Source: a virus
Taxonomy: Duplodnaviria > Caudoviricetes
Length of the DNA stretch: 56,523 nt
Reading direction: 5' to 3' (one strand)
IMG/VR virus record: IMGVR_UViG_3300027749_000129
Coordinates: 1-56,523 of that record
The notes under the pieces are model-generated. The model had not been told where the DNA came from. It did no database searches and saw only the letters and a list, made by a program, of their open reading frames with translations. Made by a program: the position numbers and the translations under genes. This document shows, piece after piece, positions 5,667 through 51,490 of the stretch; positions within the stretch are counted from its first letter, which is position 1; the number at the start of each line of letters is the position of its first letter.

Positions 5667-8023
5667 CAAACCCTGCAATGTCTGTTGAGTCGGAGTCGGA
5701 GGTATTACGACTTGAGTTACGTCTGGCCCAGATAGAGGCCCAGAGCCGTGCGAAGCGGAACTTTATCGACTTTGCCAAATATGTGTGGCCTGAAGCGATA
5801 TTGGGTAACCACCACCAGAAGATGGCGTCGGCGTTTGACAGGATTGCCAATGGCACGTTGAAGCGTTTGATTGTCAACATGGCACCTCGGCACACGAAGA
5901 GTGAGTTCTCATCCTATCTGTTGCCTGCGTTTATCATGGGCCGTGGCCCGCGAACCAAGATCATTCAAGCGACGCACACGGGGGAGTTGGCGGTACGGTT
6001 TGGTCGTAAGGTGAGGAACCTTATGGATTCTGACTCGTACAAGCAGTTGTTTCCGGGATCGGAGTTGAAGGCTGACAGCAAGGCGGCGGGTCGGTGGGAC
6101 ACGAGTGAGGGTGGGGAGTACTTTGCTGTGGGTGTGGGGGGTGCGATGACGGGCCGTGGTGCGGACTTGTTGATTATTGACGACCCGCATTCGGAGCAGG
6201 ATGCGATGTCGGCATTGGCATTGGACAATGCGTGGGAGTGGTACAGCTCTGGTCCTCGGCAGCGATTGCAGCCGGGCGGGGCAATTGTGATTGTGATGTG
6301 CATGACGGGGGATACTCTGGTTTTGATGTCAGATGGGACACAGACGCCCTTATCTGAAATACGGCCCGGGGATAAGGTAGCTACTTTTGAAAAAGGGAGG
6401 CTAGCCACGGCTAGGGTTAATAACTGGAAGTCAAATGGTTATGACTCCATAGCCAAGATACAAACACAATCTGGTAGAATACTTCGTGCGAATGCAAGAC
6501 ATCCTTTTCTTGTAATGAATGCGGGAGTGTTGGAATGGAAACGAGTAAGCCAGTTGAGAGTGGGGGACGAACTTGTAGTATTGAAGGGTGCAATAGGCCT
6601 CCCAGATCAAAAACAAAACTTGGCAAGTGTGGACCCTGCCAAGCAAGTGCTAGTTACCACCGAAAAAACCCAGACGCTCCATACCACCCCCTTGGCCACC
6701 ACGGCAAATGGAAAGGAAAGACCTGCGGATGCGGTGAACCCGTGCTCTGCAAGGGGTTCTGTGTTAAATGCTACCGAGACCACTATCCCCGTTCAAAGAG
6801 AGCACCCGAGCAAAGCCGCGCCTTGCGTATCAAGTACCGGTATGGAATCACTGTTGGACAATATGAGTGGATGGTTCAAGAGCGTCAAAACCGTTGTGAT
6901 GTCTGCGGTGAAGCGCCTTCAGATAGAAACACTCGGGCGCATTGGAACGGCAAGCTTTGTATTGACCACGACCACGACACGGGAGCAGTGCGAGGACTCC
7001 TGTGCAATGACTGCAACCTCGCCATCGGATATGGCAAGACGCCAGAGGTACTCGAACGAGCTGCAGAGTATCTCCGACTTCACAATCGATCCAATAGCCT
7101 CGATCCTACCTGATGGTAAGGAAGAGGTTTTTGATGTTGAGATTGATAGGACAGGTAATTTCATTGCCAATGGGGTAGTTAGTCACAATACTCGATGGGG
7201 CACGAAGGACCTGACAGCGAGGCTGATCAAATCGCAGTCCAGCCATAATGCTGACCGCTGGGAAGTTATTGAATTCCCTGCCATTTTACCATCAGACAAG
7301 CCCCTTTGGCCAGAGTTTTGGAAGTATGAGGAGTTGATGGGGGTAAAGGCTTCGTTGTCCCCGCAGAAGTGGCAGGCGCAGTGGCAGCAGCAGCCGAGCA
7401 ATGACGAGGGGGCCATTCTGAAGCGGGAGTGGTGGAAGCGTTGGGAGAAGGATTACACGCCTAACCTTGAGTATGTGATTCAGTCGTATGACACGGCGTA
7501 CTCGAAGAAGGAGACGGCTGACTTTTCGGCGATCACGACGTGGGGGGTGTTTTACCCGGATCAGGACAGTGGGGCGCACATCTTGTTGTTGAACGTGAAG
7601 AAGGGCCGGTGGGACTTCCCGGAGTTGAAGCGTGTGGCGAAGGAAGAGTATATCTATTGGCAGCCGGACAATGTGTTGATCGAGGCCAAAGCAACGGGGA
7701 CCACGCTCCAGCAGGAGTTGAGGAAGATGGGGATTCCTGTGACGATGTACTCGCCGGGCGGCAGGCGCGCGGGTCAGGACAAGGTATCGAGGGCCAATGC
7801 GATTGCGACGATATTGGAGTCGGGGATGGTATGGGCACCGGACACTGACTGGGCGGACGAGTTGATTGAGGAGTGTGCGGCGTTCCCGAACGGGGACAAC
7901 GACGACTTGGTGGATTCGATGGTGATGGCGCTGATGCGTTTCAGGGCGGGTAACTTCATTAGTTTGTTGGTGGACGAGGACGATGTGCCGCGTAACGAAG
8001 GTATTGTACCGGAGTATTATTAA
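5663..8023 (+). CDS. terL: Terminase large subunit, intein-containing
   Basis: Walker A NMAPRHTKS, Walker B LLIIDDP, coupling motif IVIVM|TRW split by the intein, nuclease motifs SYDTA, IEAKATG, DDLVDS. Confidence 0.95.
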   Translation: MTNPAMSVESESEVLRLELRLAQIEAQSRAKRNFIDFAKYVWPEAILGNHHQKMASAFDRIANGTLKRLIVNMAPRHTKSEFSSYLLPAFIMGRGPRTKIIQATHTGELAVRFGRKVRNLMDSDSYKQLFPGSELKADSKAAGRWDTSEGGEYFAVGVGGAMTGRGADLLIIDDPHSEQDAMSALALDNAWEWYSSGPRQRLQPGGAIVIVMCMTGDTLVLMSDGTQTPLSEIRPGDKVATFEKGRLATARVNNWKSNGYDSIAKIQTQSGRILRANARHPFLVMNAGVLEWKRVSQLRVGDELVVLKGAIGLPDQKQNLASVDPAKQVLVTTEKTQTLHTTPLATTANGKERPADAVNPCSARGSVLNATETTIPVQREHPSKAAPCVSSTGMESLLDNMSGWFKSVKTVVMSAVKRLQIETLGRIGTASFVLTTTTTREQCEDSCAMTATSPSDMARRQRYSNELQSISDFTIDPIASILPDGKEEVFDVEIDRTGNFIANGVVSHNTRWGTKDLTARLIKSQSSHNADRWEVIEFPAILPSDKPLWPEFWKYEELMGVKASLSPQKWQAQWQQQPSNDEGAILKREWWKRWEKDYTPNLEYVIQSYDTAYSKKETADFSAITTWGVFYPDQDSGAHILLLNVKKGRWDFPELKRVAKEEYIYWQPDNVLIEAKATGTTLQQELRKMGIPVTMYSPGGRRAGQDKVSRANAIATILESGMVWAPDTDWADELIEECAAFPNGDNDDLVDSMVMALMRFRAGNFISLLVDEDDVPRNEGIVPEYY
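6299..7189 (+). mobile_element. Intein in TerL (297 aa)
   Basis: Block A CMTGDTLVLMSDG, block B LRANARHPF, block F/G VFDVEIDRTGNFIANGVVSHN followed by Thr; removal restores IVIVMTRWG. Confidence 0.92.
6535..7113 (+). CDS. Endonuclease VII-like homing endonuclease, overprinted in a shifted frame inside the TerL intein
   Basis: KYRYGITVGQYEWMVQERQNRCDVC...IDHDHDTGAVRGLLCNDCNLAIG; GGGAG at 6523-6527, 7 nt before ATG; offset +2 from the terL frame. Confidence 0.88.
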   Translation: METSKPVESGGRTCSIEGCNRPPRSKTKLGKCGPCQASASYHRKNPDAPYHPLGHHGKWKGKTCGCGEPVLCKGFCVKCYRDHYPRSKRAPEQSRALRIKYRYGITVGQYEWMVQERQNRCDVCGEAPSDRNTRAHWNGKLCIDHDHDTGAVRGLLCNDCNLAIGYGKTPEVLERAAEYLRLHNRSNSLDPT

Positions 8024-8067
8024 CCCGTAGAATGGGGCGAAGTCTTCATTCTTTGAAAGGCAAGCCT

Positions 8068-10014
8068 ATGAACACTCCTTCTGCAAAAGACCTTCTGCAA
8101 GCGATGCCTGTCAAAATGGCAGAGGGTGGTGAAATATCCTCGGGCCTTGCTAATGCAACCAAGCCGGACGGGATTGGGGCGGATCAGTACTACAAGAACA
8201 TTGCTGCGTACGTTGCTACGCAGTCAGACCCCTTAATAGGATTGCAAGAAGCGTCTAAGAACGGGGTCAGCATGGCGGATGCGGCGAAAGCAATAGGTCA
8301 GGATAAGCTCAACGCGTATTTGAACATTGACTTGAATACGGAGAAGACGCCTACCCCTACGGCTTCGGGCTATACTTCTGCACGCGAGAACATGTACGTG
8401 GGTCCTAATGCGATATACGCCACGGGACCGGACAGCGGGCAAGCTGGGCTTAACGCTAAGATCCAAGCGGCCGCAAAGCAGTATGTAGGGAACCCAACAG
8501 CGCTACAAAACCTGTTCATAGCAAACGGCCTTAACATTGACGATATAGTGCGTGCGGGCGTGGACCCCACGGTCATGTTGTCGATTACGCCAAAGAAAGT
8601 AGACAAACCGCCTACGACCGGCGTATTCCCTCCTGTTACACTCCCTCCTGTCTACCAGCCCCTACCCACACCGCCACCACTTTATCCCACGGGCCAGCCT
8701 GCGCTGGACGTAAACTTCCGCAACAGTGCGCCGCGTAGTGCATGGGACCCGGTCTACGGGTATTCGTACACGCCTGCTGCCAAACTGCTCTCGGCCACCG
8801 GATCAGGATTTGGTTGGATGCCGCCGTCTGTGACTAGCCGTCCGCGAGACTTGTTGCGTACACCGATGGCCAATACCTCTGCCTCACAGCAGTACGCACA
8901 AAACAGCGCGGCTCAGGACAGGGCATTGGCGAATGCGTATAGGACAAGCGGCCTTGGTGCGAACCCCTCTGCCTTCTACGACTGGCGTAGCCGGTTGCGT
9001 GGGGGTGAGTTCGGTGGGGATCAGACTACCCCACTTAATACGGACGCGTTTAATGCGAGCTTTACGGACTGGGCAAAAACAGAGGCGGACAAGCAGGCGA
9101 TAGCCAAGGCCAACAAGGGTACGCTTGCAAACACCTCATCTTCTGATTTTGTCCCCCAGTACGCTACCGGGGGATACATCACAAAAAAAGCTGAGGGGGG
9201 TAGCATTGATACTGCCCCCGTTAAACCTGCGCCAGATGCCGTTACACTTGCGCCAAACTCCAACGTTGAGCCGGAATCCAAACCGGTAGACTCGACAAAG
9301 CAGTATAAGGATGTGTTCCAAGATGAACCCTTGGTGGACCGTGTAGGGGAATACCTTGGGGGGTTTAAGGACTTGGTGAAGTACCGTTTATCTGATGGTA
9401 AGGGTTTAGATCAGCACATAACCTACAATAACCAATTGAAGTCCCAGTTCCGTGAAGCATATCCCGAGCTTAAGGATGACAAGCAACGTAGTGGTTTGCT
9501 GGATGCAGCGGTTAAGTATGCGGGAGCCTACGACTGGGCGGCACGTCCTAATGTAAGTCCTGAAGATGCGCGGTCCATGGCCCGTGCTTACCAACTCTAT
9601 GACTACAACACCAGCGACCGTACTCCGTCGAATGAGCTGTCTGACTACTACCGCAATCTGGCAGGTGTAGAGCAGGGCATTAAGCACAGAGCGGAAGGCC
9701 GTCGGTTAAGCGAGTCGGAGTTGATGAAAGAAGCGCTTAACTACGCGATATCGCAGACTGGTGGCAATATGCCATTGACCCGACCAGAGCTATGGAATCG
9801 GGAATACGAAAAAGGTATGAAGACGAAAAAAGCTGACGGCGGCCTGATCAGAAAGTACGACGAAGGTGGTGATGTCTCGCCAATGAGCTACGACGAGTTA
9901 GCGGCGCAGATGCAGAGGGTTGGTGAAGCGCCGAGAGAGGCCCAGACCCCTGAATCGCGGACCACGGTCCGGGAACAGACTGAAAGCGCGAAGATGCTGG
10001 AGCGTGTACAATAA
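8068..10014 (+). CDS. Large putative virion-associated modular protein with five GG motifs
   Basis: Long ORF between terL and portal; MAEGG, YATGG, KAEGG, KADGG, YDEGG; AAAGG RBS before ATG 8068 (track start 8032). Confidence 0.6.
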   Translation: MNTPSAKDLLQAMPVKMAEGGEISSGLANATKPDGIGADQYYKNIAAYVATQSDPLIGLQEASKNGVSMADAAKAIGQDKLNAYLNIDLNTEKTPTPTASGYTSARENMYVGPNAIYATGPDSGQAGLNAKIQAAAKQYVGNPTALQNLFIANGLNIDDIVRAGVDPTVMLSITPKKVDKPPTTGVFPPVTLPPVYQPLPTPPPLYPTGQPALDVNFRNSAPRSAWDPVYGYSYTPAAKLLSATGSGFGWMPPSVTSRPRDLLRTPMANTSASQQYAQNSAAQDRALANAYRTSGLGANPSAFYDWRSRLRGGEFGGDQTTPLNTDAFNASFTDWAKTEADKQAIAKANKGTLANTSSSDFVPQYATGGYITKKAEGGSIDTAPVKPAPDAVTLAPNSNVEPESKPVDSTKQYKDVFQDEPLVDRVGEYLGGFKDLVKYRLSDGKGLDQHITYNNQLKSQFREAYPELKDDKQRSGLLDAAVKYAGAYDWAARPNVSPEDARSMARAYQLYDYNTSDRTPSNELSDYYRNLAGVEQGIKHRAEGRRLSESELMKEALNYAISQTGGNMPLTRPELWNREYEKGMKTKKADGGLIRKYDEGGDVSPMSYDELAAQMQRVGEAPREAQTPESRTTVREQTESAKMLERVQ

Positions 10015-10041
10015 CCGCAAATATATTTAAAGGATACGAAG

Positions 10042-12399
10042 ATGCCGATAGATAGGGCTGTCAACTTAGCACCTAATTCTGACTTGCTTGAAGGCACCAG
10101 TGAGTCGCCAGATATCGAGATCGTTCTTGAGGACGATGGCAGCGCTACTATTGAGCTAGGGGAAGACGACGAAGATGATGTTGGCTTTTACGGCAACATC
10201 GCAGAAGTTATAGATGACGGGGACCTTGGTCGGATATCCATGGACCTGATGGCATTGTTTGAGGCCGACAAGTCTAGCCGTTCCGATTGGGAACAGATGT
10301 ACTCCAAGGGCCTTGAGCTATTGGGCTTGAAGATTGAAGAGCGTACCAAACCCTTCCGTGGCGCGGCGGGCGCGGTCCATCCGATGCTGACTGAGGCAAT
10401 TGTTCAGTTCCAAGCACAGGCATTTAAGGAGTTGATGCCTGCCAGTGGTCCGGTACGTACTCAGATCGTGGGCAAAGAGACTTTAGATAAGGTCCAACAA
10501 GCTTCACGCGTACAAGATTTCATGAATTATCAGATTACTTCGGTAATGAAGGAATACACCCCGGAGTTTGACCAGCTTCTTTTCTACACGGGCTACGGCG
10601 GATCGACTTTCAAAAAGGTTTATTACGACGAACAGATAGGCCGTATGGTCAGTCGGTTAGTTCTGCCCGACGATATGTATATCCCGTATAACGGTTCAAG
10701 TGTTATTTCGGAATGTCCGCGTCTGACTCACCGCATTTCCATGGATACCAACGAGCTTCGCAAGCGTATTGTCGCGGGTGAATACCTTGATGTGATGATA
10801 GACGCCAAGGCAACACCGTCTTACGCCAACCAGATACGTTATTCCATTGATAAAGCTACGGGTGTTGTGCAAACAGGCTCCCCGGAAGAAGCTTTTCTAT
10901 TGGAATTCCAAGTGTCGTTGGATATTCCGGGCTTTGAGGACATGGATGATGACGATGAGCCGACTGGAATTAAGCTCCCTTACGTAGTTACCATTGACGA
11001 AGCCAGTGCAAGGGTAATTGGTGTACGTCGTAACTGGGTAGAAGGGGATGAAAAGAAACGTCGTCGTGAATATTTTGTTCATTACGTATTGGTTGAGGGC
11101 CTTGGTGCGTATGGCTTGGGCTTTGTTCACCTGATCGGTGGTCTTTCTAAGACTGCAACCAGTGCATTACGTCAATTGTTAGACGCGGGTACGCTGTCTA
11201 ACCTTCCTGCGGGCTTTAAAGCCAAGGGTGCGCGCATCGCGGACGACGATACGCCGATCCAACCGGGCGAATGGCGTGATATTGATGCCGGTGGGGCAGA
11301 ACTTTCGTCTTCCTTGCTGCCTTTGCCCTACAAAGAGCCATCACAAACGCTATTTCAGCTACTGGGCTTTACGGTTGACGCGGGTAAACGTCTGGCTAGT
11401 ACGGCGGACATGCAGGTAGGGGACGGAAATCAGCAGGCAGCGGTAGGTACTACGATTGCATTGCTTGAAAGGGGTTCGATGGTGATGTCTGCCATCCATA
11501 AGCGCCTATATTACGCCCAGACCCAAGAGTTTGAGATGCTAGCCAAGGGTTTTGGTGAGTATTTGCCTGACGAATACCCTTATGACGTACCGGGCGCTAG
11601 TCGCAGGATCAAGAAATGTGACTTTGACCACATGGTTGCGATATTGCCAGTGGCTGATCCGAACATTTTCTCTGCTGCCCAACGCATAACGTTGGCACAG
11701 ACGCAGTTGCAGTTAGCGCAGTCTGCTCCTCAGATGCATAACATGTACGAAGCGTATTACCGCGTCTACGCGGCAATGAACATCCGTGACATTGATGGCC
11801 TCCTGCGCGCGCAGAGCAATAACCTGCCTAAAGATCCTGCTACTGAGAACGCTGACGTGCTGGAAAACATGGAGCTTAAGGCTTTTGCGGGCCAGCAGCA
11901 TGATGCGCACATTGCGGCACATATTATGATGGGCTTATCGGCATTAATGCAGGCTAACCCCATAGGCGGCGTGATATTGTACAAGCACATCATGCAGCAT
12001 ATCCGTTTGAAAGCCGAAGAAGATACCGAAGCGGAATTGTATGTTGAATACGGGTCGGATCCAGACCACATGGTCTCTGACTTGCAGCGCGAAGGCATGA
12101 TATCGTTGAAGATTGCGCAGTTCATGCAGGAGATGCGGGCGCTTCAGGATAAGTTAGCCAATCCCGGTGGTGGTGGCCAAGATCCGATTGTTGCGTTGAA
12201 AGCACAGGAGCTTCAGCAGCGTGCAGCGAAGGATCAGGCAGATATCAAGTTGAAGGAAGAAGGCTTGCAGCTTGATCAGTCTAAGATTGCGCAGAACGAA
12301 AAAGCTAATCAAGAACGGATTGCATCACAGCAGAAGGTTGCTCAGATGCGAACAGGTGTTGCACTGCAGCGGATAAACCAACCGCGTAAAGGAGGCTAA
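10042..12399 (+). CDS. Portal protein
   Basis: 785 aa after terL; HPMLTEAIVQFQAQA, GSTFKKVYYD, GLGFVHLIGGL, LLDAGTLSNLPAGFK; helical C-terminus. Confidence 0.85.
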   Translation: MPIDRAVNLAPNSDLLEGTSESPDIEIVLEDDGSATIELGEDDEDDVGFYGNIAEVIDDGDLGRISMDLMALFEADKSSRSDWEQMYSKGLELLGLKIEERTKPFRGAAGAVHPMLTEAIVQFQAQAFKELMPASGPVRTQIVGKETLDKVQQASRVQDFMNYQITSVMKEYTPEFDQLLFYTGYGGSTFKKVYYDEQIGRMVSRLVLPDDMYIPYNGSSVISECPRLTHRISMDTNELRKRIVAGEYLDVMIDAKATPSYANQIRYSIDKATGVVQTGSPEEAFLLEFQVSLDIPGFEDMDDDDEPTGIKLPYVVTIDEASARVIGVRRNWVEGDEKKRRREYFVHYVLVEGLGAYGLGFVHLIGGLSKTATSALRQLLDAGTLSNLPAGFKAKGARIADDDTPIQPGEWRDIDAGGAELSSSLLPLPYKEPSQTLFQLLGFTVDAGKRLASTADMQVGDGNQQAAVGTTIALLERGSMVMSAIHKRLYYAQTQEFEMLAKGFGEYLPDEYPYDVPGASRRIKKCDFDHMVAILPVADPNIFSAAQRITLAQTQLQLAQSAPQMHNMYEAYYRVYAAMNIRDIDGLLRAQSNNLPKDPATENADVLENMELKAFAGQQHDAHIAAHIMMGLSALMQANPIGGVILYKHIMQHIRLKAEEDTEAELYVEYGSDPDHMVSDLQREGMISLKIAQFMQEMRALQDKLANPGGGGQDPIVALKAQELQQRAAKDQADIKLKEEGLQLDQSKIAQNEKANQERIASQQKVAQMRTGVALQRINQPRKGG

Positions 12400-12400
12400 G

Positions 12401-12923: not shown

Positions 12924-12942
12924 CCCACCAGAGGACGTGCAG

Positions 12943-32088: not shown

Positions 32089-32149
32089 CATGTATACCGA
32101 TCCTAAAATAAGGTGTATACTAAAGGCTCTTCTACTTAAGGGGCTTAGT

Positions 32150-32788
32150 ATGGGTAAATTTATAGATCGCGTAGGGCAGCGGTTTGGGAAACTAGTAGTA
32201 ATTGCGCGCAGCGGCACTAACGTACACAAGCAAGTTATGTGGCTATGTACTTGTGATTGTGGAGAAAAAACCACTGTAGTTTCTGGGAGTTTGGTGACAG
32301 GTAATACTACTTCCTGTGGATGCATCCCCCCAAACTTTAAACACGGAGGGTGGAATAAGTCTTCCTACAACACATGGCGGGCAATGATGCGGCGTTGTTA
32401 TAACCCCATAGATAAGGACTACGCGCGATACGGGAGTAAAGGGGTTACTGTATATGCTCTTTGGCATGATTATGCCGCTTTCGCAATAGCTGTTGGTGAG
32501 CCGTCAGGCACTGAAACCCTTGACCGGATTGACACAACGGGTAACTACGAGCCTAACAATGTGCGCTGGGCAAGCCCTACCGCGCAAGCTAGAAACCAGT
32601 GCATGTCAAAGCTAAATAAGACAGGTTTCGCTGGTGTTTTATTCCACGGTGGACGCTATTACGCAGCGATAACAGTGCAAAAGAAAAAGTTTTATTCCAA
32701 AGTATTTGGGACAGCAGAAGAAGCTGCTGCCGCTAGAAAAGGATTAGAGATGCTGCATTGGGGAGTCTTAAATGAGCAAAATCACTAA
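32150..32788 (+). CDS. Free-standing HNH homing endonuclease with AP2-like C-terminal domain
   Basis: GQRFGKLVV..CTCDCG..SCGC, RCYNP..YGSKG, TLDRIDTTGNYEPNNVRWA, FGTAEEAAAAR (track start 32090). Confidence 0.85.
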   Translation: MGKFIDRVGQRFGKLVVIARSGTNVHKQVMWLCTCDCGEKTTVVSGSLVTGNTTSCGCIPPNFKHGGWNKSSYNTWRAMMRRCYNPIDKDYARYGSKGVTVYALWHDYAAFAIAVGEPSGTETLDRIDTTGNYEPNNVRWASPTAQARNQCMSKLNKTGFAGVLFHGGRYYAAITVQKKKFYSKVFGTAEEAAAARKGLEMLHWGVLNEQNH

Positions 32789-44419: not shown

Positions 44420-44960
44420 CATGTTTGAACAGGATGCTGATGCACTCAAGGTAGCCGATGACGATATCGTAAGTATCGCGGGCCTTGCTAAACGTGCCAA
44501 GCTACTTGAGAAAGAAGTGGAAGAAATGGAGTCCGTAGTCAAAGAGCGTAAAGACCAGCTACGTAAACTGGTTGAAGAAGTTATCCCTGAAGCACTTGCA
44601 GGTATGGGGATGAAGTCATTTAAGATGGAAGACGGTTCTTCTATTGATGTGAAACCGTTCTACAGTGCCAGTATTTCTGAAGCGCGTCGTGCTGAAGCCT
44701 ATCAATGGCTCAGGGACCACGGCTTTGATGACATCATCAAGAATACAGTCAGCGTCCGTTTTGGACGCGGCGAAGACGAGCTTTGCAGCCGTTTCATAGG
44801 GCTTCTCGACGAGAAGGGCTTTCCAGCCAGTCAAACCGAGAAAATAGAACCCATGACTCTTAAGGCATGGGTAAAGGAACAGACGGAGCGAGGCAACGAG
44901 TTTCCATCTGAACTTTTTGGTGCCTACATAGGCCAAAAAGCGGTAATTAAATCAGCATAA
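44406..44960 (+). CDS. Hypothetical replication-module protein
   Basis: Coiled coil then WLRDHGFDDIIKN, EPMTLKAWVKE; AAAGGAG RBS. Confidence 0.7.
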   Translation: MTMNSMFEQDADALKVADDDIVSIAGLAKRAKLLEKEVEEMESVVKERKDQLRKLVEEVIPEALAGMGMKSFKMEDGSSIDVKPFYSASISEARRAEAYQWLRDHGFDDIIKNTVSVRFGRGEDELCSRFIGLLDEKGFPASQTEKIEPMTLKAWVKEQTERGNEFPSELFGAYIGQKAVIKSA

Positions 44961-44980
44961 CTAACCAAGAGACAAGAAAC

Positions 44981-45748
44981 ATGAGCAAGCAATCTATAGC
45001 AGTAAAGGAAAATTCCGTATTGGTTTTATCCCCCAACTTTGAATCTGATGCGAACGGTGGCTTTAAGGACATGGGGCAAGAAGACTTCGCGCTTCCATTC
45101 CTGCGTCTGCTGACCAACGTCAGTCCTGAAGTGGGTGAGGTAGATGGGGCCTTGCCGGGCATGCTCTACAATAGTGTTACTGGCCAATTGTATGATGGCA
45201 AGAAAGGTGTGCTTGTCATACCCACCAGCTACGTACGTCAGTACATTGAATGGGCACCACGTGGATCTGGGAGCGGTGCACCGTTGATGGTCTACCCATC
45301 GACTAGTGATATCATCTCTAAGACACACCGTGAAGTGGGAGATAACAAAGATTATCTGGATAACGGCAACTACATTGAAAACACAGCCAATCACTATGTG
45401 ATGGTGCTAGACAATGGCGTTCCCAATCCTGCATTGATCGTAATGAAATCCACACAGCTTAAGAAGTCGCGCAAGTGGAATAGCATGATGTTGTCAGTCA
45501 AGCTTCCTAGCAGTACTGGTACTTTGTTTACGCCACCAATGTACAGTCAGGTATACCGCTTGACTACAGTAAGCGAGTCCAATGACAAGGGCAAATGGTT
45601 CGGCTGGGAAATCGAACGTGTTGGTTCGGTTGAAGACTCCAATGTTTATAGTGCAGCAAAGTCCTTTGCTGAAACTATTAACAGTGGATCAGTAAAAGTA
45701 AAACACCAAGATGATTCAGAAGCAGCATCCTCTGATCGTATATTCTAA
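44981..45748 (+). CDS. Putative single-stranded DNA-binding protein
   Basis: LPFLRLL..SPE, YIEW, MKSTQLKKSRKWN; acidic tail ending in Phe; upstream of primase. Confidence 0.55.
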   Translation: MSKQSIAVKENSVLVLSPNFESDANGGFKDMGQEDFALPFLRLLTNVSPEVGEVDGALPGMLYNSVTGQLYDGKKGVLVIPTSYVRQYIEWAPRGSGSGAPLMVYPSTSDIISKTHREVGDNKDYLDNGNYIENTANHYVMVLDNGVPNPALIVMKSTQLKKSRKWNSMMLSVKLPSSTGTLFTPPMYSQVYRLTTVSESNDKGKWFGWEIERVGSVEDSNVYSAAKSFAETINSGSVKVKHQDDSEAASSDRIF

Positions 45749-45753
45749 GTGTG

Positions 45754-45778
45754 AGGCCGGGTAACTCCCGGCCTTTTT
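45754..45778 (+). terminator. Rho-independent terminator
   Basis: AGGCCGGG-TAACT-CCCGGCCT then TTTT. Confidence 0.75.
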
Positions 45779-45795
45779 ATACCGAGAAAGAAGAA

Positions 45796-47325
45796 ATGGT
45801 AGACATATCTCGCTTCAAGGCTATTTTTACAGGGTTAGACATAGCCTATGGAACCTATAAGATTGAAAGAGCAAAAGAGAATGGCAAGCAGGCCGGAAAG
45901 GCTGTTGTTATTCGCAAACCCCCTACCGATGATCTGTGGCAGAAGCATCTTGATGGTGTAGAACCCAGTCTAGGCATAATTCCAATACGCGCAAACAACA
46001 GTTGTATCTGGGGTTGCGTGGACATTGACCAGTATCCGCTTGATCACAAGGGGCTGGTTGAGAAGGTGCGCCGTTTAAAACTACCCATGGTTGTTTGCCG
46101 TAGCAAATCCGGCGGTGCGCATGTATTCCTATTCACTTCTGAACCAGTCCCTGCGGCGGACATGCAGCGCTTCCTCACGGCGGCGGCAGGACTACTTGGC
46201 GAGGCTGGACGCGAGATATTTCCTAAGCAGGCAGAAATATTAGTAGAGCGCGGCGATACCGGTAATTTCCTAAACCTACCCTATTTTGCAGGGGACGAAG
46301 GCCTACGTTACGCCATCAATGACGATGGCAGTGCCGCGACACTGGAAGAGTTCTACGCGCTATACGCAACTTACGTACAGACACCGCCACTGGCATTTCC
46401 AGAAGCTGCAAAGCAAGCAGAGATCATCGTAAAGGATGGTCCACCGTGCCTACAGGCACTGTGCACGCAAGGATTTCCTGAAGGCACACGTAATAACGGC
46501 ATGTTCAGCGTTGGCATTTATTTGAAGAAGGCTTACCCAGTGGGTTGGGAAGACAAAATGATGGAGTACAACCTCAAGTACTTCGCACCCCCCTTGAGCA
46601 TGTCGGAGCTGCAGATCATTAGTAAGCAGCTCGGCAAGAGGGACTATAAGTACAAGTGCAAAGATGCGCCCATCAATTCCTTCTGTAACGCAGGCCTATG
46701 CCGTACACGTAAACACGGTATTGGCGGTGATGGCCCAGACTCGCCACAGATGTCTGCACTGTCCAAATACAATTCCGAACCGCCATTATGGTTCTTAGAC
46801 GTTAACCTAAAGCGTATCGAACTGGAGACAGAACATCTCTTCAACCAGATAGCCTTCCAAAAGGCATGTGTGGAAAAGCTTAACTGCTTCCCACCCACAG
46901 TGCGTAAGCAGGACTGGGAGACAATGATCAATGGGCTGTTGAAAGAGATGGTGGAACTGGAAGCGATACAGGAAGCCTCTGATGATACGACCATCACTGG
47001 ACGCTTCGCGGATCTTGTCGAAGAATTCTGCACCCATCTCCAGCAAGCAATGGTCCGTGATGAGATATTGATGGGCCGCCCTTGGGTGGATGAAACAGAA
47101 GGCAAAGTATATTTTCGTATCAAAGACCTTGAAGCACACATGAAGCGTAATAACTTCACGGGCCTTTCAGCCCCTAAGATGGCCCAGCGACTGCGCGACA
47201 CTGGCGGTGAACCCATCAGCCTATTCTTGAAGAATCGCACCACCCGCGTGTGGCGCTTGCCACGCTTCACGACACAGGACGCACCCTTTGAAATGCCGAG
47301 GATGCAGAACAAGGCTCCCTTCTAG
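45796..47325 (+). CDS. AEP-superfamily primase with PriCT-like domain
   Basis: GCVDID, RSKSGGAHVFLF, GNFLNLPY, PPCL...EGTRNN. Confidence 0.78.
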   Translation: MVDISRFKAIFTGLDIAYGTYKIERAKENGKQAGKAVVIRKPPTDDLWQKHLDGVEPSLGIIPIRANNSCIWGCVDIDQYPLDHKGLVEKVRRLKLPMVVCRSKSGGAHVFLFTSEPVPAADMQRFLTAAAGLLGEAGREIFPKQAEILVERGDTGNFLNLPYFAGDEGLRYAINDDGSAATLEEFYALYATYVQTPPLAFPEAAKQAEIIVKDGPPCLQALCTQGFPEGTRNNGMFSVGIYLKKAYPVGWEDKMMEYNLKYFAPPLSMSELQIISKQLGKRDYKYKCKDAPINSFCNAGLCRTRKHGIGGDGPDSPQMSALSKYNSEPPLWFLDVNLKRIELETEHLFNQIAFQKACVEKLNCFPPTVRKQDWETMINGLLKEMVELEAIQEASDDTTITGRFADLVEEFCTHLQQAMVRDEILMGRPWVDETEGKVYFRIKDLEAHMKRNNFTGLSAPKMAQRLRDTGGEPISLFLKNRTTRVWRLPRFTTQDAPFEMPRMQNKAPF

Positions 47326-48824
47326 TGGCCATCCATAAAATATTCGGTCCCCCCGGATCCGGCAAGACTACATACCTGCTCGACATTGTTGAGCAGGAAC
47401 TTGCTGTTGTGCACCCAATGTCCATTGGATACTTTGCTTTCACACGCAAGGCATCCCTCGAGGCAAAGGAACGTGCCACTGCAAAGTTTCCGCACCTAAA
47501 TCCTGATACCGACTTCCCGTGGTTTCGCACGCTCCACAGTCTGGCGTACCAGTGCCTTGGCGTCAGCAACAAAGACATCATGAAGCCTGAGAATTACCGT
47601 GAGTTTGCCGCACAGGCCGGTATTACCATGGGGCCACTTGTCAGTGATGAAGACGATTGTGTCGTCCACGCCGATAATCCAATACTGAACGAGATCAACA
47701 TCGCGCGCATCAAGGGCCTTGATCTGCACACACACTACAACCAAAGCCAGATGGGCATCGAGTGGCACCACTTTGAATACGTCGAGCGCGCGTATCGCCA
47801 CTTCAAAGAGAACGCAGGACTGCTGGACTTTACCGATCTGCTGGAATTGATCAACGCGCAACCTGAGCGACTGCCCAAGCTAACCGTGGTCATCCTTGAC
47901 GAGGCACAGGACTTGTCCGCACTGCAGTGGACCCTTGTACAGAACCTTATGAAGAGGGCTACTCGCTCATTCATTGCAGGCGATGACGATCAGGCTGTTT
48001 ACATGTGGGCAGGTGCAGACGTAGACAGCTTTCTGAATTGCGAGGGCGATATCCGCGTCCTGCAGCAATCGTATCGTGTACCTGCACGCGTCCATGCGCT
48101 AGCCACTCAAGTCGTACAACGCATTCGTAAGCGTCAACCTAAATTCTGGAACTCCCGTGAGGTAGAGGGCAATATCACCTATTATCGCGACTACATGCAT
48201 GTGGATATCTCTACCGGAGAGTGGCTGATACTGGCGTCAGCCAATTACATGCTTAATGATCTGTATGGCTGGATAAAGTCACAGGGAATACTCTTCGAGC
48301 GTCACGGACAACGGAGCATTGCTGAAGCCACACTCGCCGCCGTAATCGGCTGGGAGTCCCTGCGCAAGGGACGATCCATAAACTACCCCACGCTCAAACA
48401 CATTTATAAATACCTTAATTCAGATTTCATCGCACGCGGGCATAAGACACTACGCGAGGCGGATCCAGAAGCACTCTTTACGCTTGATGATTTAAAAGCA
48501 CGCCATGGACTATTAACTGATAGCATCTGGCACGAAGCACTGACTAAGATCGGTGCAGAAAAGATAGACTACATCATTGCCATATTACGCCGGGGCACGA
48601 AACTCACTGGCAAGGTGCAAGTAAAACTGTCCACGATCCACGGAGCAAAAGGGGGAGAGGCGGATAACGTCTTGCTCTTCACGGACCTGAGCCCAAAGTT
48701 TGCTAAGGACTATGACCATAACGCGGATGATATAAATCGACTGCTGTACGTGGGAATTACCCGTACACGGGAGACACTGCACATCATCCATCCCAAGGAC
48801 ATACGAAAGGCCTTTAGATTTTGA
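47325..48824 (+). CDS. UvrD/Rep-like superfamily 1 helicase
   Basis: GPPGSGKTT, RTLHS, LDEAQD, GDDDQA, QSYR, STIHGAKGGE, YVGITR. Confidence 0.9.
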   Translation: MAIHKIFGPPGSGKTTYLLDIVEQELAVVHPMSIGYFAFTRKASLEAKERATAKFPHLNPDTDFPWFRTLHSLAYQCLGVSNKDIMKPENYREFAAQAGITMGPLVSDEDDCVVHADNPILNEINIARIKGLDLHTHYNQSQMGIEWHHFEYVERAYRHFKENAGLLDFTDLLELINAQPERLPKLTVVILDEAQDLSALQWTLVQNLMKRATRSFIAGDDDQAVYMWAGADVDSFLNCEGDIRVLQQSYRVPARVHALATQVVQRIRKRQPKFWNSREVEGNITYYRDYMHVDISTGEWLILASANYMLNDLYGWIKSQGILFERHGQRSIAEATLAAVIGWESLRKGRSINYPTLKHIYKYLNSDFIARGHKTLREADPEALFTLDDLKARHGLLTDSIWHEALTKIGAEKIDYIIAILRRGTKLTGKVQVKLSTIHGAKGGEADNVLLFTDLSPKFAKDYDHNADDINRLLYVGITRTRETLHIIHPKDIRKAFRF

Positions 48825-51490
48825 AAACTAACATACCGCTGTTCCCGATCCAGTCCGAATGGCTCCCGCCACTGGATTTTCCTGACTTGTCCGAAGCAAA
48901 AGAAATCGCTATCGACTTGGAGACCTGTGATCCCAACATGGAGAAGTACGGACCCGGTTGGCCACGCAAGGATGGTTTTGTCGTGGGCTACGCTGTTGCA
49001 GTGGATGGATGGAAGGGTTATTACCCTATCGCGCACGCAGGCGGCGGTAATTTAGACAAACGAATCGTCGAGCGTTGGATCACCAAGATCCTACTACTGC
49101 CCTGCGACAAGGTCATGCACAACGCTGCCTACGATGTTGGCTGGCTTCGCGCATCAGGCTTCACGGTCAACGGACGTATTATCGACACCATGATCGCTGC
49201 CGCATTGATAGACGAGAACCGGTTCAGTTATGCGCTCAACAGTCTGGGCTACGATTACCTTAAAGAGACCAAGTCAGAGCAGGGGCTACGAGACGCTGCA
49301 GCCGATTTCGGATTGCACCCTAAGAAGGAGCTGTGGAAACTCCCCGCGATGTATGTGGGTGCTTACGCGGAACAGGATGCTGCTCTTACGCTAAAGCTCT
49401 GGCATCACTTCCAAATCCTAATGCGCGACGAAGAAGTCGAATCCATTTTCAATCTGGAAACAGAGCTATTGCCTATCCTGATCGATATTACCTTTCGCGG
49501 TATCCGGTTTGACCGTGACAGAGCCATAGCTTTGATTACCGAAATGAAACACAAAGAGAAAAAGTTATTAACGTACATCAAGGATGTTTCAGGGGTACCC
49601 GTGGACATGTGGGCCGCTGCAACAATCGCTAAAGCCTTCGACAAACTAAACATCCCCTACCCACAGACTACGACCGGACTGCCCAGCTTTACCAAGTCAT
49701 TCCTTGATACGTGCGAGCATCCTATTGCCAAGGCCATCATGGAAGCACGCGAGCTGAACAAGACCTACGGCACGTTCCTGCAGCCCTACATCGATTTCTC
49801 TGCCCACGATGGGCGCATCCACGCGCATATCAACCAACTGCGCTCTGATGACGGCGGCACGGTGACAGGCAGGCTATCCATGGCATCGCCGAACCTCCAA
49901 CAAGTGCCAGCCCGGCACGAAATCATCGGACCCATGGTGCGCTCACTCTTTCTGCCAGAAGAAGGACAGCACTGGGCAGCCTGTGACTTTTCATCACAAG
50001 AGCCACGCTTGTTGGTGCATTACGCTAACCTGCTCCAGCTTGACGGAGCACGCGACATGGCCCAAGCCTACATCACAGATATCGATACCGACTTCCATCA
50101 GATGATCGCCGACATGGCAGGCATCAAACGCAAGGTAGCTAAAACGATTGGCTTGGGTCTTTGCATTGCGCAGGGCGAAATGGTCCTTACCGATAGTGGC
50201 CTTGTTCCAATCCAACAGGTAACGGAATTGCATAAAGTATGGGATGGGGTAGAATGGGTATCACATGAGGGAGTGTTTTTCATGGGAACCAAAGAGGTTA
50301 TTACCTATGGCAATCTCACAGCAACACCGGACCATGACGTCTGGACAAACGAATCAGGGAAAATTTCTCTCCGGCTCGCAGCATCAAGATTGGATGCACT
50401 TGTTTCCACCGGAAATGCGGAACAGGCAATTCGGTATGTGGACCGTGATCAGCAGGGTGGTTCAGCGAACAGGAAAACATCAGTACGCGAAAGTGCGATG
50501 CGTTTGTGGGGCCGAGGATTGGAAGCTCTTGGACAACCTCAAAAGTGGAAAGTCAACTATGTGCCGACCATGCACTATGCGCAAGCAGCATGCGGGACGA
50601 GGGCACTTGATTGTAAAATCCATCGAGATGAAGTCACTGCAAAGAAGGGCTACGGCGGCTATGCAGAGATGCCAAAACCCCAAGGACAGAGGCTGGAAAC
50701 ACTATGGTGGCCGTGGAATTCAATGCGAGTTTTCCTCCGTAAAGGCCTTTGTGGAATATCTGCTGTCCTTGCACCCTGCTTCGGACTGGTTGGGAATGAC
50801 CATAGACCGGACCAACAACGAGGGAAACTACGCAGTGGGAAACCTCCGAATAGCTTCTTACCGAGAAAACAACCTGAACAGAAGAAATACGCGAAAGTCT
50901 ATGACATCATAAACGCTGGCCCCCGCCATCGGTTTACCGTGTCTAATGTCTTGGTGTCTAACTGCTACGGCATGGGCAAGGGCAAACTCGCCGTACAGCT
51001 CGGCCTACCCGTAGAGGATGCCTCCGAACTGATCACCACCTTTCACCGTAAGGTACCGTTCCTAAAGGGCACCATAGACGCCGTGATGAAGGCCATCGAA
51101 CGCCCCGCCAGTGGGGGCAGCATACGCACGCTACTCGGACGCAAATGCCGCTTCCCACTCTGGGAACCCACCGAATGGGGCGTACACAAGGCACTGCCGT
51201 ACGAAGAAGCCACCGCGAAATACGGCCCACGGATCAAGCGTGCAATGACCTACAAGGGGCTTAACAAACTCCTGCAAGGCAGTGCTGCTGACCAGACTAA
51301 AGCTGCAATGGTCGCGCTCCACAAAGCGGGTTTCACTCTATTATTACAGGTACATGACGAGATTGCGGTCAGTGTGTCCACGCCTGAAGAAGCACGCACC
51401 GCTGCTGACATAATGGTCGCCGCAGTCAAGCTCACCGTGCCCTCCAAGGCCGATATGGAAATAGGTCCCTCATGGGGCAGCGCAAAATAA
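48821..51490 (+). CDS. polA: Family A DNA polymerase with 3'-5' exonuclease, intein-containing
   Basis: Exo motifs IDLET, HNAAYD, YAEQDA; TGRLS..PNLQQ; motif A DFSSQEPR; motif B KTIGLGL|CYG; motif C QVHDE. Confidence 0.95.
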   Translation: MKTNIPLFPIQSEWLPPLDFPDLSEAKEIAIDLETCDPNMEKYGPGWPRKDGFVVGYAVAVDGWKGYYPIAHAGGGNLDKRIVERWITKILLLPCDKVMHNAAYDVGWLRASGFTVNGRIIDTMIAAALIDENRFSYALNSLGYDYLKETKSEQGLRDAAADFGLHPKKELWKLPAMYVGAYAEQDAALTLKLWHHFQILMRDEEVESIFNLETELLPILIDITFRGIRFDRDRAIALITEMKHKEKKLLTYIKDVSGVPVDMWAAATIAKAFDKLNIPYPQTTTGLPSFTKSFLDTCEHPIAKAIMEARELNKTYGTFLQPYIDFSAHDGRIHAHINQLRSDDGGTVTGRLSMASPNLQQVPARHEIIGPMVRSLFLPEEGQHWAACDFSSQEPRLLVHYANLLQLDGARDMAQAYITDIDTDFHQMIADMAGIKRKVAKTIGLGLCIAQGEMVLTDSGLVPIQQVTELHKVWDGVEWVSHEGVFFMGTKEVITYGNLTATPDHDVWTNESGKISLRLAASRLDALVSTGNAEQAIRYVDRDQQGGSANRKTSVRESAMRLWGRGLEALGQPQKWKVNYVPTMHYAQAACGTRALDCKIHRDEVTAKKGYGGYAEMPKPQGQRLETLWWPWNSMRVFLRKGLCGISAVLAPCFGLVGNDHRPDQQRGKLRSGKPPNSFLPRKQPEQKKYAKVYDIINAGPRHRFTVSNVLVSNCYGMGKGKLAVQLGLPVEDASELITTFHRKVPFLKGTIDAVMKAIERPASGGSIRTLLGRKCRFPLWEPTEWGVHKALPYEEATAKYGPRIKRAMTYKGLNKLLQGSAADQTKAAMVALHKAGFTLLLQVHDEIAVSVSTPEEARTAADIMVAAVKLTVPSKADMEIGPSWGSAK
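50162..50962 (+). mobile_element. Intein in PolA motif B (267 aa)
   Basis: Block A CIAQGEMVLTDSG, block B LTATPDH, block F/G VYDIINAGPRHRFTVSNVLVSN followed by Cys; removal restores AKTIGLGLCYGMG. Confidence 0.92.
50307..50912 (+). CDS. HNH-family homing endonuclease, overprinted in a shifted frame inside the PolA intein
   Basis: RQFGMWTV..RCVCG..LKSGKSTMC, RCQNPKDRGWKHYGGRGI, TIDRTNNEGNYAVGNLR..N; AGAGGT before ATG 50307 (longest ORF starts 50265); offset +1 from the polA frame. Confidence 0.85.
   Translation: MAISQQHRTMTSGQTNQGKFLSGSQHQDWMHLFPPEMRNRQFGMWTVISRVVQRTGKHQYAKVRCVCGAEDWKLLDNLKSGKSTMCRPCTMRKQHAGRGHLIVKSIEMKSLQRRATAAMQRCQNPKDRGWKHYGGRGIQCEFSSVKAFVEYLLSLHPASDWLGMTIDRTNNEGNYAVGNLRIASYRENNLNRRNTRKSMTS

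What the first reader, a model, noticed from the sequence alone, without database searches (positions are those of the whole stretch)
6299..50962. Two dual-frame inteins in one genome suggest a general route: free-standing endonuclease genes invading mini-inteins
Seen: the PolA-nested HNH has the same motif order as the free-standing HNH at 32150-32788 (RQFGMWTV vs QRFGKLVV; CVCG vs CDCG; RCQNP..YGGRG vs RCYNP..YGSKG; IDRTNNEGNYAVGN vs LDRIDTTGNYEPNN). Both nested ORFs keep RBS, start and stop like autonomous genes. Inference: whole endonuclease genes inserted into the tolerant loop of mini-inteins without fusing. This would give the nuclease a neutral site and the intein mobility, and would decouple nuclease dosage from host-protein expression. 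Standard gene callers would miss such nested same-strand ORFs.
Basis: inference. Interest (0 to 1): 0.85.

Follow-up and report, generated by a model that had tools for sequence, protein, structure and literature searches.

The report
Nuclease genes hidden inside phage inteins
Two self-splicing protein inserts (inteins) in this phage's terminase and DNA polymerase genes each carry a complete nuclease gene read in a different frame of the same DNA; one type was described in a 2025 preprint, and the other looks undescribed yet turns out to be common in phages.

Summary
The window is an IMG/VR phage record. Each carries a same-strand, out-of-frame nuclease ORF: Endonuclease VII (6535-7113, frame +2) and a PHROG-374 'HNH' (50307-50912, frame +1). 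The PolA ORF is homologous to the free-standing gene at 32090-32788 (BLASTP E 4e-11).

Both nested ORFs are real genes. Across relatives, substitutions pile up at the nuclease frame's third codon position inside the overlap and at the host frame's third position outside it. The Shine-Dalgarno sequence and start codon are conserved. The host frame is stop-free far beyond chance.

Gosselin, Arsenault and Gogarten (bioRxiv 2025) report the same TerL/EndoVII intein in actinophages and propose capture of free-standing nuclease genes.

What appears new is the out-of-frame HNH type. 76 of the 80 closest IMG/VR inteins carry it. So do GenBank phages (183 records with a homologue; in 36 of the 40 rows listed only a polymerase CDS is annotated there).

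Nested nucleases form one clade per type, so capture was rare. Half of the mini-intein relatives found (4 of 8) are deletion derivatives. The window's own free-standing gene is not the donor.

The parts
5663..8023 (+). terminase large subunit precursor (786 aa) containing an intein
   Evidence: Pfam Terminase_6C E 9.7e-12 and Intein_splicing E 7.4e-16; 78% identical to the intein-less TerL of Phage DSL-LC04
6299..7189 (+). TerL intein (297 aa; Cys1, C-terminal SHN, +1 Thr)
   Evidence: insertion relative to DSL-LC04 TerL; same site and homologous splicing blocks in Mycobacterium phage Phlyer and Gordonia phage Angelicage
6523..6527 (+). Shine-Dalgarno-like GGGAG, 7 nt before the nested start
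   Evidence: an SD-like word lies at -18..-5 in 34 of 34 distinct related inteins, and in the printed alignment the host Gly codon there reads GGA or GGG
6535..7113 (+). nested Endonuclease VII gene (192 aa), frame +2 relative to TerL
   Evidence: Pfam PF02945 E 3.5e-19; PHROG 2914 E 1.7e-27; start column is ATG in 29 and GTG in 5 of 34; diversity highest at its own third codon position over 6599-7078
48821..51490 (+). family A DNA polymerase precursor (889 aa, TTG start) containing an intein
   Evidence: Pfam DNA_pol_A E 1.5e-49 in two stretches; 75% identical to the intein-less PolA of DSL-LC04
50162..50962 (+). PolA intein (267 aa; Cys1, block B TATPDH, C-terminal VSN, +1 Cys replacing Met of the intein-less allele)
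   Evidence: AF2 of the host frame gives a confident beta-rich fold for residues 1-90 and 241-267 and pLDDT under 50 for 97-169 and 175-209; top Foldseek rows are all inteins or HINT domains; no Pfam intein model matches it
50291..50297 (+). Shine-Dalgarno-like AAAGAGG before the conserved nested start (host codons K-E-V)
   Evidence: SD-like word in 57 of 69 distinct related inteins, together with ATG in 53 of 69
50307..50912 (+). nested PHROG-374 'HNH' nuclease gene (201 aa from the conserved ATG; the ORF is open from ATG 50265), frame +1 relative to PolA
   Evidence: PHROG 374 E 1.2e-28; ATG at intein nt +145 in 58 of 69; substitutions concentrate at its own third codon position (856 vs 452 and 401); AF2 mean pLDDT 85.3
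32090..32788 (+). free-standing paralogue of the PolA-nested nuclease (232 aa; possible start at 32150)
   Evidence: PHROG 374 E 8.6e-66; BLASTP to the nested copy E 4e-11; groups with free-standing genes in the tree; the called 232-aa protein is in the public collection

Best explanation
Each element is a composite mobile intein that uses one stretch of DNA twice. In the host frame it encodes a class-1 HINT splicing domain: an N-lobe of about 90 residues and a C-lobe of about 30. The lobes are joined by a 140-190-residue linker whose sequence is not conserved and is predicted to be disordered. The linker only has to stay free of stop codons, so that TerL or PolA is translated through and then spliced. 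In another frame of the same strand, the same DNA encodes a complete nuclease with its own Shine-Dalgarno sequence, start and stop: Endonuclease VII in TerL, and a PHROG-374 'HNH'-type protein in PolA. The nuclease is made by internal initiation on the host gene's mRNA. It most likely cuts intein-less alleles in co-infecting phages, so that repair copies intein and nuclease together (homing). Shown here: the anatomy, selection on the nuclease frame, the conserved start signals, intein-less alleles in the nearest relative, and spread across very different exteins. Inferred: splicing, nuclease activity and target, homing, and origin by a rare capture of a free-standing nuclease gene, about once per type.
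For: Boundaries and intein-less alleles. HINT fold with an unstructured host-frame linker in PolA. Pfam intein match in TerL. Frame under selection in the PolA set (5 sequences): pairwise differences at host codon positions 1/2/3 are 75/27/166 in the N-splice part, 856/452/401 in the overlap (host position 1 = nuclease position 3) and 20/6/123 in the C-splice part. TerL set (34 distinct of 45 inteins with both ends found): diversity 23/19/40, then 45/101/57 (host position 2 = nuclease position 3), then 2.8/1.4/14.8. The nuclease is more conserved than the host-frame linker in 9 of 9 pairs (44-70% vs 28-43%). Start signals: (the host Tyr codon that forms the ATG is TAT in 59 and TAC in 8 of 69). 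Stop avoidance. Mobility: the splicing blocks are 56-77% identical between the window and two actinophages whose exteins are 25-30% identical. The same PolA intein family sits in several PolA lineages, an SNF2 helicase and ResIII/DEAD helicases. Recurrence: 47 of 61 EndoVII loci are nested in ~800-aa ORFs; 76 of 80 related inteins have the HNH in frame +1; 183 GenBank phage records carry a homologue, with frames verified in Salmonella phage f18SE (+2) and Streptococcus phage Javan113 (+1).
Against: No experiment or expression data were examined. Splicing, internal initiation, cleavage and homing are all inferred. The 'HNH' label rests on a PHROG name. No Pfam model matches even at E up to 1. 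The family has no invariant His, and an invariant Arg stands where HNH enzymes have the catalytic His. The best structural match (PacI, Z 6.1) is only middling. For origin by capture: free-standing relatives carry a median of 7.7 and 17.6 stops per 200 codons in the two alternative frames and none is stop-free, so an intermediate is needed, for example a split intein. No split form was seen among the 47 nested EndoVII loci or the 80 intein loci. The start signals lie inside HINT-coding DNA, not inside an inserted cassette.
Confidence: 0.75

Rival explanations
1. Secondary frameshift: the ancestors were ordinary inteins with an in-frame nuclease domain. Compensating indels at both ends later moved the nuclease out of frame, and an upstream ATG inside the HINT-coding DNA was recruited as its start.
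For: The present SD and ATG lie in HINT block-B DNA, and the first ~30 residues of the PolA nuclease are low-confidence in the model. That fits a recruited start better than an imported one. One nuclease clade occurs in two relative frames: +1 in most, +2 in L080, L081, L084 and f18SE. So frame changes do happen. In-frame HNH inteins are reported (preprint passages).
Against: No in-frame relative was found: 0 of 80 related inteins and none in a search for longer proteins (weak). A frameshift meets the same stop-codon problem as an insertion. Both nuclease families are mainly free-standing in the samples (14 of 61 and 64 of 79 rows).
Confidence: 0.15
2. Domesticated function: the nested nucleases serve the phage rather than the intein. 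For example, the EndoVII inside terL could resolve branched DNA before packaging, as T4 gp49 does (recalled). The overlap would then be a compact way to encode them.
For: Endonuclease VII is a junction-resolving family (Pfam name) and here it lies in the packaging gene. The nuclease frame is under long-term purifying selection.
Against: The nearest relative, DSL-LC04, lacks both inteins and so both nested genes. The nuclease always travels with the intein across exteins only 25-30% identical. Deletion derivatives that lost the nuclease core persist as mini-inteins. This is the pattern of a selfish homing element.
Confidence: 0.07
3. The nested ORFs are chance open frames or dead relics, with no product.
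For: The window has other long same-strand nested ORFs of 102-173 aa. No expression data were examined.
Against: Family matches are strong (E 3.5e-19 and 1.2e-28). The ORFs stay open in all 47 and 14 nested relatives down to about 30% identity. The codon-position pattern switches to the nuclease frame. SD and ATG are conserved at host-synonymous sites. The nuclease model is confident. The control ORFs have no family match.
Confidence: 0.02

Closest known systems
[quoted passage not shown]
   Same: The window's TerL element is the same family. It has the same insertion site, homologous splicing blocks, and an EndoVII ORF in 'frame 3'. Its nuclease groups with those of Phlyer and Angelicage in one clade. 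The preprint also proposes capture of free-standing nuclease genes and notes that annotation pipelines miss them.
   Different: The window is not an actinophage; its nearest relative is recorded with host 'Gammaproteobacteria'. 47 further copies occur in IMG/VR contigs. In the text read, the preprint lists no same-strand out-of-frame HNH, only in-frame HNH. Its supplements could not be seen.
ShiLan domain: hidden out-of-frame HNH in a phage DNA methylase (Arsenault, Gosselin, Gogarten, Genes 2025, PMC11855218; abstract and section 4.3 read)
   Same: An HNH-type nuclease is read in another frame of an insertion that stays open in the host frame and behaves as a homing element.
   Different: ShiLan has no detectable splicing domain and no detectable RBS (leaderless GTG start proposed). 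Here the insert is a HINT intein and the nuclease has a conserved SD plus ATG.
Fractured genes: split inteins with a free-standing endonuclease gene between the halves (Dassa et al. 2009; known only as cited in the preprint, and recalled)
   Same: A separate nuclease gene sits between the N- and C-terminal intein parts. A capture model is proposed for it.
   Different: Here the host frame is continuous, so this is a cis-splicing intein. No split form was seen in the 47 nested EndoVII loci or the 80 intein loci examined.
Canonical inteins with an in-frame LAGLIDADG or HNH domain
   Same: A HINT splicing domain is interrupted between blocks B and F by nuclease-coding DNA, and the element is mobile by homing.
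   Different: The nuclease is not part of the intein polypeptide. The in-frame product of that DNA is an unconserved, low-confidence linker.
Group I introns invaded by, or collaborating with, free-standing homing endonuclease genes (Bonocora and Shub 2009; Zeng et al. 2009; both recalled, not read)
   Same: The same evolutionary logic: a splicing element gives the nuclease a harmless home, and the nuclease gives the splicing element mobility.
   Different: An intron ORF need not keep a second frame open. Here the two frames constrain each other over 65% (TerL) and 76% (PolA) of the intein DNA.

Membership tests
Intein (HINT, class 1) | Insertion inside a conserved host protein, absent from close homologues | tested here: met
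   DSL-LC04 TerL and PolA lack exactly aa 213-509 and aa 448-714
Intein (HINT, class 1) | Cys/Ser at position 1, C-terminal Asn, Cys/Ser/Thr at +1 | tested here: met
   TerL: C...SHN|T. PolA: C...VSN|C, with the penultimate His replaced by Ser in the window while most relatives have HN
Intein (HINT, class 1) | HINT fold or profile match | tested here: met
   TerL: Pfam Intein_splicing E 7.4e-16, over the cut-off. PolA: no Pfam intein match, but in the AF2 model the top Foldseek rows are all inteins or HINT domains, best E 1.6e-3, prob 1.00
Intein (HINT, class 1) | Protein splicing activity | not testable with these tools
   Inferred from the essential host genes being otherwise intact
Recombination endonuclease VII (PF02945) | Profile match over the curated cut-off | tested here: met
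   68.9 bits against a cut-off of 23.6, residues 98-181; five further PHROG 'endonuclease VII' families
HNH / beta-beta-alpha-Me nucleases | Match to a curated HNH profile | tested here: not met
   No Pfam family at E up to 1 for the nested or the free-standing protein. Only PHROG 374, named 'HNH endonuclease'. PDB profile search: I-HmuI at E 0.39
HNH / beta-beta-alpha-Me nucleases | Catalytic His at the end of the first beta strand | tested here: not met
   The 46-sequence alignment has no invariant His; an invariant Arg168 stands in '[D/E]-R' where HNH enzymes have 'D-H' (motif recalled). Invariant residues are C65 C67 G68 C86 R121 C122 G134 G137 R168 Y175 N179 N191
HNH / beta-beta-alpha-Me nucleases | beta-beta-alpha fold with Zn-binding Cys pairs | tested here: inconclusive
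   The model has strands 165-168 and 180-183 plus helix 185-190. The best VIA-align match is the HNH restriction enzyme PacI, 3m7k_A, Z 6.1, rmsd 2.6, 80 residues. Foldseek found nothing
Non-canonical inteins with an out-of-frame same-strand nuclease (Gosselin et al. 2025) | Nuclease ORF in another frame of the same strand, between the splicing blocks of a contiguous intein | tested here: met
   Both elements. The TerL element shares the nuclease clade of the published Angelicage group
Split intein with an intervening free-standing nuclease gene (fractured gene) | Host gene broken into two ORFs | tested here: not met
   The host frames are open across both inteins

The most novel reading that the evidence does not exclude
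Overprinted nuclease-inteins are not rare oddities or short-lived intermediates. They are the standard, ancient design of a large phage intein family, with at least 561 N-splice-block relatives in IMG/VR and 183 GenBank phage records that carry a homologue of the nested nuclease. In this design the nuclease's ribosome-binding site and start codon are hard-wired into the HINT block-B coding DNA. The nuclease itself would be a His-less, PacI-like variant of the HNH fold. The whole unit has moved between PolA lineages and helicases and between sites 15 nt apart. That would make it a distinct, so far unannotated class of homing element, open to experiments in cultured E. coli phages.
Probability: 0.55. 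Interest if true: 0.7.

Novelty: new variant of a known kind. Interest (0 to 1): 0.6.

Why it matters
How inteins acquired their homing nucleases is a long-standing question. The 'splicing first, nuclease captured later' model has rested mostly on the diversity of nuclease types. Elements in which the nuclease is still a separate gene inside the intein are the closest thing to a preserved state of that association.

This work shows three things. First, the recently described EndoVII/TerL type extends beyond actinophages. Second, an HNH-like type that the searches did not find in print is common and stable. Third, these nested genes are absent from annotations, including those of Salmonella, Escherichia, Shigella and Streptococcus phages.

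In practice, intein surveys that score such elements as 'mini' or 'decaying' inteins undercount active homing elements. Cultured E. coli phages could provide a direct test system for internal initiation and homing.

Tried and rejected
A search of the 5.8-billion-protein set for longer proteins holding the nested HNH, meant to find in-frame fusions, returned none. The tool itself calls this weak evidence.

Foldseek of the nuclease model against the PDB gave nothing at E <= 0.001. Only VIA-align gave PacI, at Z 6.1. Pfam at E up to 1 gave nothing for either HNH-like protein, nor for ORF 5067-5666.

Suspected split or broken forms were rejected. L035's TerL frame closes after the nuclease, but the locus holds an N and a frame jump there, so it is an assembly artefact. 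L170 and L172 end in unrelated sequence. The other 'no end found' loci simply end in VLN or VFN, which my pattern missed.

Rows flagged 'nested' only by short open frames were treated as chance and counted as free-standing: L065 (100 aa), L121 (176 aa) and L134 (152 aa). Ralstonia phage RSF1, listed under a 'radical SAM' CDS, is in fact a free-standing copy between genes.

The separate placement of L095's nuclease among free-standing genes was not upheld, because the AU test does not reject one nested clade.

Rows dropped: three loci with matches under 120 aa (L085, L108, L149) from the HNH tree, and five TerL loci without both intein ends (L035, L041, L042, L050, L054) from the diversity count.

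Only the best 80 of at least 561 and of 244 relatives were examined. Both sets are ranked by likeness to the window's sequences. The trees are 'quick' LG+G4 trees, and the EndoVII tree carries long-branch warnings among the free-standing rows.

Not tried: RNA or read evidence (look-up of sequencing runs, read laying), complex prediction, and scans of metagenome contigs or genome contigs.

Literature: seven searches (and find-in-paper 99) turned up no report of a same-strand out-of-frame HNH inside an intein. Subscription journals are not covered. The supplements of the preprint are closed and could list more types.
Full report
WHAT IS THERE. The window is a 56,523-bp IMG/VR virus record, linear, with CheckV completeness 95%. 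Its nearest named relative is Phage DSL-LC04, recorded with host 'Gammaproteobacteria'; its TerL and PolA genes match at 71-73% nucleotide identity.

Protein alignment with DSL-LC04 shows two clean insertions. The first is TerL aa 213-509 = nt 6299-7189 (IVIVM|CMTGDT...VVSHN|TRW). The second is PolA aa 448-714 = nt 50162-50962 (KTIGLGL|CIAQGEM...VLVSN|CYGMGK). In PolA the +1 Cys replaces the Met of the intein-less allele.

The TerL insert matches Pfam Intein_splicing (E 7.4e-16). The PolA insert matches no Pfam intein model. Its host-frame AlphaFold model is nevertheless confident and beta-rich for residues 1-90 and 241-267. It has pLDDT under 50 for residues 97-169 and 175-209. The top Foldseek rows are all inteins or HINT domains, with the DnaX mini-intein best at E 1.6e-3 and probability 1.00.

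THE NESTED GENES. ORF 6535-7113 lies in frame +2 relative to TerL and is an Endonuclease VII (Pfam E 3.5e-19; PHROG 2914 E 1.7e-27). ORF 50265-50912 lies in frame +1 relative to PolA. It matches PHROG 374, named 'HNH endonuclease' (E 1.2e-28), as does the free-standing gene at 32090-32788 (E 8.6e-66). The nested genes cover 65% of the TerL intein DNA and 76% of the PolA intein DNA.

ARE THEY REAL GENES? Four lines of evidence say yes.

(1) Codon-position pattern. I compared the PolA intein with four IMG/VR relatives whose nucleases are 61-89% identical (L005-L008). Pairwise differences at host codon positions 1/2/3 are 75/27/166 in the N-terminal splicing part. They are 856/452/401 in the overlap, where host position 1 is nuclease position 3. 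They are 20/6/123 in the C-terminal part. The TerL set used 34 distinct sequences out of 45 inteins with both ends found; five loci without both ends were dropped. Diversity there is 23/19/40, then 45/101/57 (host position 2 is nuclease position 3), then 2.8/1.4/14.8. A sliding window places the switch at about 6599 and 7078. So inside the overlap, purifying selection acts on the nuclease frame. In 9 of 9 pairwise comparisons the nuclease is more conserved (44-70%) than the host-frame linker (28-43%).

(2) Stop avoidance. Synonymous recodings of the nucleases, using the window's codon usage, leave the host frame open in 169 of 20,000 trials (EndoVII) and 0 of 20,000 (HNH, mean 13 stops). The unused third frame has 15 and 11 stops.

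(3) Start signals. In 34 of 34 distinct TerL inteins an SD-like word precedes the start. The start is ATG in 29 and GTG in 5, always in the same alignment column. In the printed alignment the host Gly codon that forms the SD reads GGA or GGG. In the PolA intein family, 58 of 69 distinct inteins have ATG at intein nucleotide +145, which is 50307 in the window. 57 of 69 have an SD-like word and 53 of 69 have both. The host Tyr codon that creates the ATG is TAT in 59 and TAC in 8. ATG 50265, the first in the window's ORF, is not conserved: in L006-L008 a stop lies just upstream of the 50307 equivalent.

(4) The nuclease model is confident (mean pLDDT 85.3). Only its first ~30 residues, which overlap HINT block B, score low.

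As a control, four other nested same-strand ORFs of 102-173 aa in the window have no PHROG match.

RELATIVES OF THE TerL ELEMENT. DNA search found short matches inside the nuclease region in Gordonia and Mycobacterium phage terminase genes. Phlyer and Angelicage have the same insertion site, homologous splicing blocks and an out-of-frame EndoVII ORF. In both records only TerL is annotated, plus in Phlyer the intein as a mature peptide.

An IMG/VR scan with the nuclease returned 61 loci. The 47 with 50-69% identity are all nested in a long same-strand ORF in the same relative frame, about 800 aa where the contig allows. The 14 with at most 49% identity are free-standing. In a tree, the 35 distinct nested proteins, actinophages included, lie on one side of a branch with SH-aLRT 97 against the 14 free-standing ones. 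Long-branch warnings apply to the free-standing rows.

Between the window and the two actinophages the exteins are 25-30% identical, but the splicing blocks are 56-77% identical. That fits horizontal spread of the whole unit.

RELATIVES OF THE PolA ELEMENT. A profile of nested plus free-standing HNH proteins found 244 relatives in IMG/VR, of which the best 80 were kept. Fourteen of the 80 are nested in ORFs of 856-977 aa. Eleven of them have the nuclease in frame +1 relative to the host, and three (L080, L081, L084) have it in frame +2. Four of these fourteen are the contigs already found as L005-L008.

A profile of the N-terminal splicing block found at least 561 relatives, and the best 80 were kept. 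I translated these in six frames and scanned them with a local HMM of the nuclease family. 76 of 80 have their best match in frame +1 of the host, 70 of them at E < 1e-20. None has it in frame 0 or on the other strand.

The exteins include several PolA lineages, an SNF2 helicase and ResIII/DEAD helicases (10 proteins scanned). Within the window's own PolA lineage the same intein occupies two sites five codons apart: AKT|C... and AKTIGLGL|C....

A tblastn search of GenBank phages found 183 records at E <= 1e-10: Salmonella 145, Escherichia 11, Pseudomonas 9, Streptococcus 6, and others. In the 40 rows listed, 36 matches lie under a CDS annotated only as a DNA polymerase. Two rows are a free-standing copy in Ralstonia phage RSF1, and two records have no annotation. 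I checked frames in two. Salmonella phage f18SE (Jerseyvirus) has the nuclease in frame +2 of an intein-bearing PolA. Streptococcus phage Javan113 has it in frame +1, with the same SD and ATG arrangement.

The window's nested proteins are absent from the 15-billion-protein collection, whereas the free-standing 232-aa protein is present. Of five other long records with the TerL/EndoVII intein, one also has a PolA-family intein.

ORIGIN. Several results fit it. Both nuclease families are mainly free-standing in the samples. The nested genes have their own translation signals. No in-frame member was found.

The data add limits to that model.

- Capture was rare. There is one clade for EndoVII. 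For HNH, 14 of 15 nested rows form a clade (SH-aLRT 97), and a tree holding all 15 together is not rejected (AU p 0.53).
- The window's free-standing gene sits far away among free-standing genes; its nearest row is L110 at 45% identity. It is not a recent donor.
- None of 54 distinct free-standing relatives is stop-free in either alternative frame. The medians are 7.7 and 17.6 stops per 200 codons, and the window's own gene has 14 and 20. A fresh insertion would therefore truncate an essential protein unless it passed through a stage such as a split intein. I saw no split form among the 47 nested EndoVII loci or the 80 intein loci.
- The genes are not confined to a loop. The SD, ATG and about 40 codons overlap block-B DNA. 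In some relatives the nuclease ORF runs past the intein end into the C-extein (L077, L079 and the L186 type).
- Eight mini-inteins of 129-172 aa occur among the 80 related inteins. Four of them keep fragments of the nuclease frame. L226 (137 aa) equals L186 (309 aa) minus the nuclease core, and it retains about 55 N-terminal and 40 C-terminal residues of the nuclease frame. These four are deletion derivatives, as the homing cycle predicts, and not ancestors. The other four (L168, L178, L204, L218) show no remnant and are uninformative.

WHAT THE 'HNH' IS. The label comes from a PHROG name. No Pfam model matches, even at E up to 1. The PDB profile search gives I-HmuI only at E 0.39. The 46-sequence alignment has four conserved Cys (three invariant, one nearly so), Arg168, Tyr175, Asn179 and Asn191, but no invariant His. 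The model ends in a beta-beta-alpha unit. The best structural match is the HNH restriction enzyme PacI (Z 6.1, rmsd 2.6, 80 residues), a middling score. I recall, without having read the paper here, that PacI also lacks the usual catalytic His and is thought to use a Tyr. That is a lead, not a test. Nuclease activity is therefore inferred.

PRIOR ART AND NOVELTY. Gosselin, Arsenault and Gogarten (bioRxiv 10.1101/2025.01.02.630785; I read the abstract, found passages and section 15) describe out-of-frame EndoVII-like nucleases 'in frame 3' in actinophage inteins, including those of Angelicage, Affeca, Keitabear and Sedona. They propose invasion of intein coding sequence by free-standing nucleases. 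They discuss split inteins and later in-frame fusion, and they warn that annotation misses such elements. The same group described an out-of-frame HNH in a non-splicing methylase insertion (PMC11855218; abstract and section 4.3 read).

The searches did not find in print a same-strand out-of-frame HNH-like gene inside PolA and helicase inteins, its prevalence, or its presence in cultured Salmonella, Escherichia, Shigella and Streptococcus phages. Subscription journals and the preprint's supplements were not visible.

VERDICT. The finding is best filed as a new variant of a known kind, with moderate to high interest. The main reason is that the second type is widespread, stable, unannotated and open to experiment.

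Noticed in passing
window 50141-50980; L006-L008, L074, L075 (PolA intein junctions): The same intein (N-splice block 78-82% identical in L071 and L074) sits at two insertion points five codons (15 nt) apart in one PolA lineage: AKTIGLGL|C...N|CYGMGK in the window and L005, and AKT|C...N|C[ST]L..MYG.G in the others. The extein residues between the two points differ, which looks like co-conversion. This suggests imprecise or shifted homing.
   Followed up: partly
L077 3001-3804, L079 3001-3708, L186 and L195 (IMG/VR loci): In one PolA lineage (KGKxAELA|C...HN|CGYGG) the nested nuclease ORF runs 22-31 nt past the intein's last codon into the C-extein. Here the nuclease frame also overlaps block G and host-protein codons.
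   Followed up: partly
window 50342-50431: About 90 nt after the nested start are almost invariant at all three codon positions among the five close relatives. This may reflect double constraint from HINT strands and the nuclease N-terminus, or possibly an RNA or DNA signal.
   Followed up: no
window 50162-50962 and ten related host proteins: Pfam's intein, Hint and Vint models do not detect this PolA/helicase intein family at all, although the fold search does. Domain-based intein surveys would miss the family.
   Followed up: partly
L073-L075, L152-L159 (IMG/VR loci): A subgroup has a 321-aa intein whose nested nuclease is about 70 aa longer at the C-terminus (271-284 aa). The window's free-standing paralogue also has a C-terminal extension that looks AP2-like from recall. 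Neither extension matched a Pfam model.
   Followed up: no
contig of L016 and L215 (G001, 64,683 bp): A second phage record carries both intein types, TerL/EndoVII and a PolA-family intein with a +1 HNH. Four other complete or near-complete records with the TerL intein do not.
   Followed up: partly
window 5067-5666: The ORF just upstream of terL has paired CxxC motifs and an 'HH..Y...WLC..CH..LH' tail. It reminded me of the small HNH proteins that sit beside terminase genes (recalled). Pfam gave no match at E up to 1, so the resemblance is unsupported.
   Followed up: partly
L067 2920-4305: One distant EndoVII relative lies in a 462-aa ORF in its own frame, so it may be fused to another domain. 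It was not examined.
   Followed up: no
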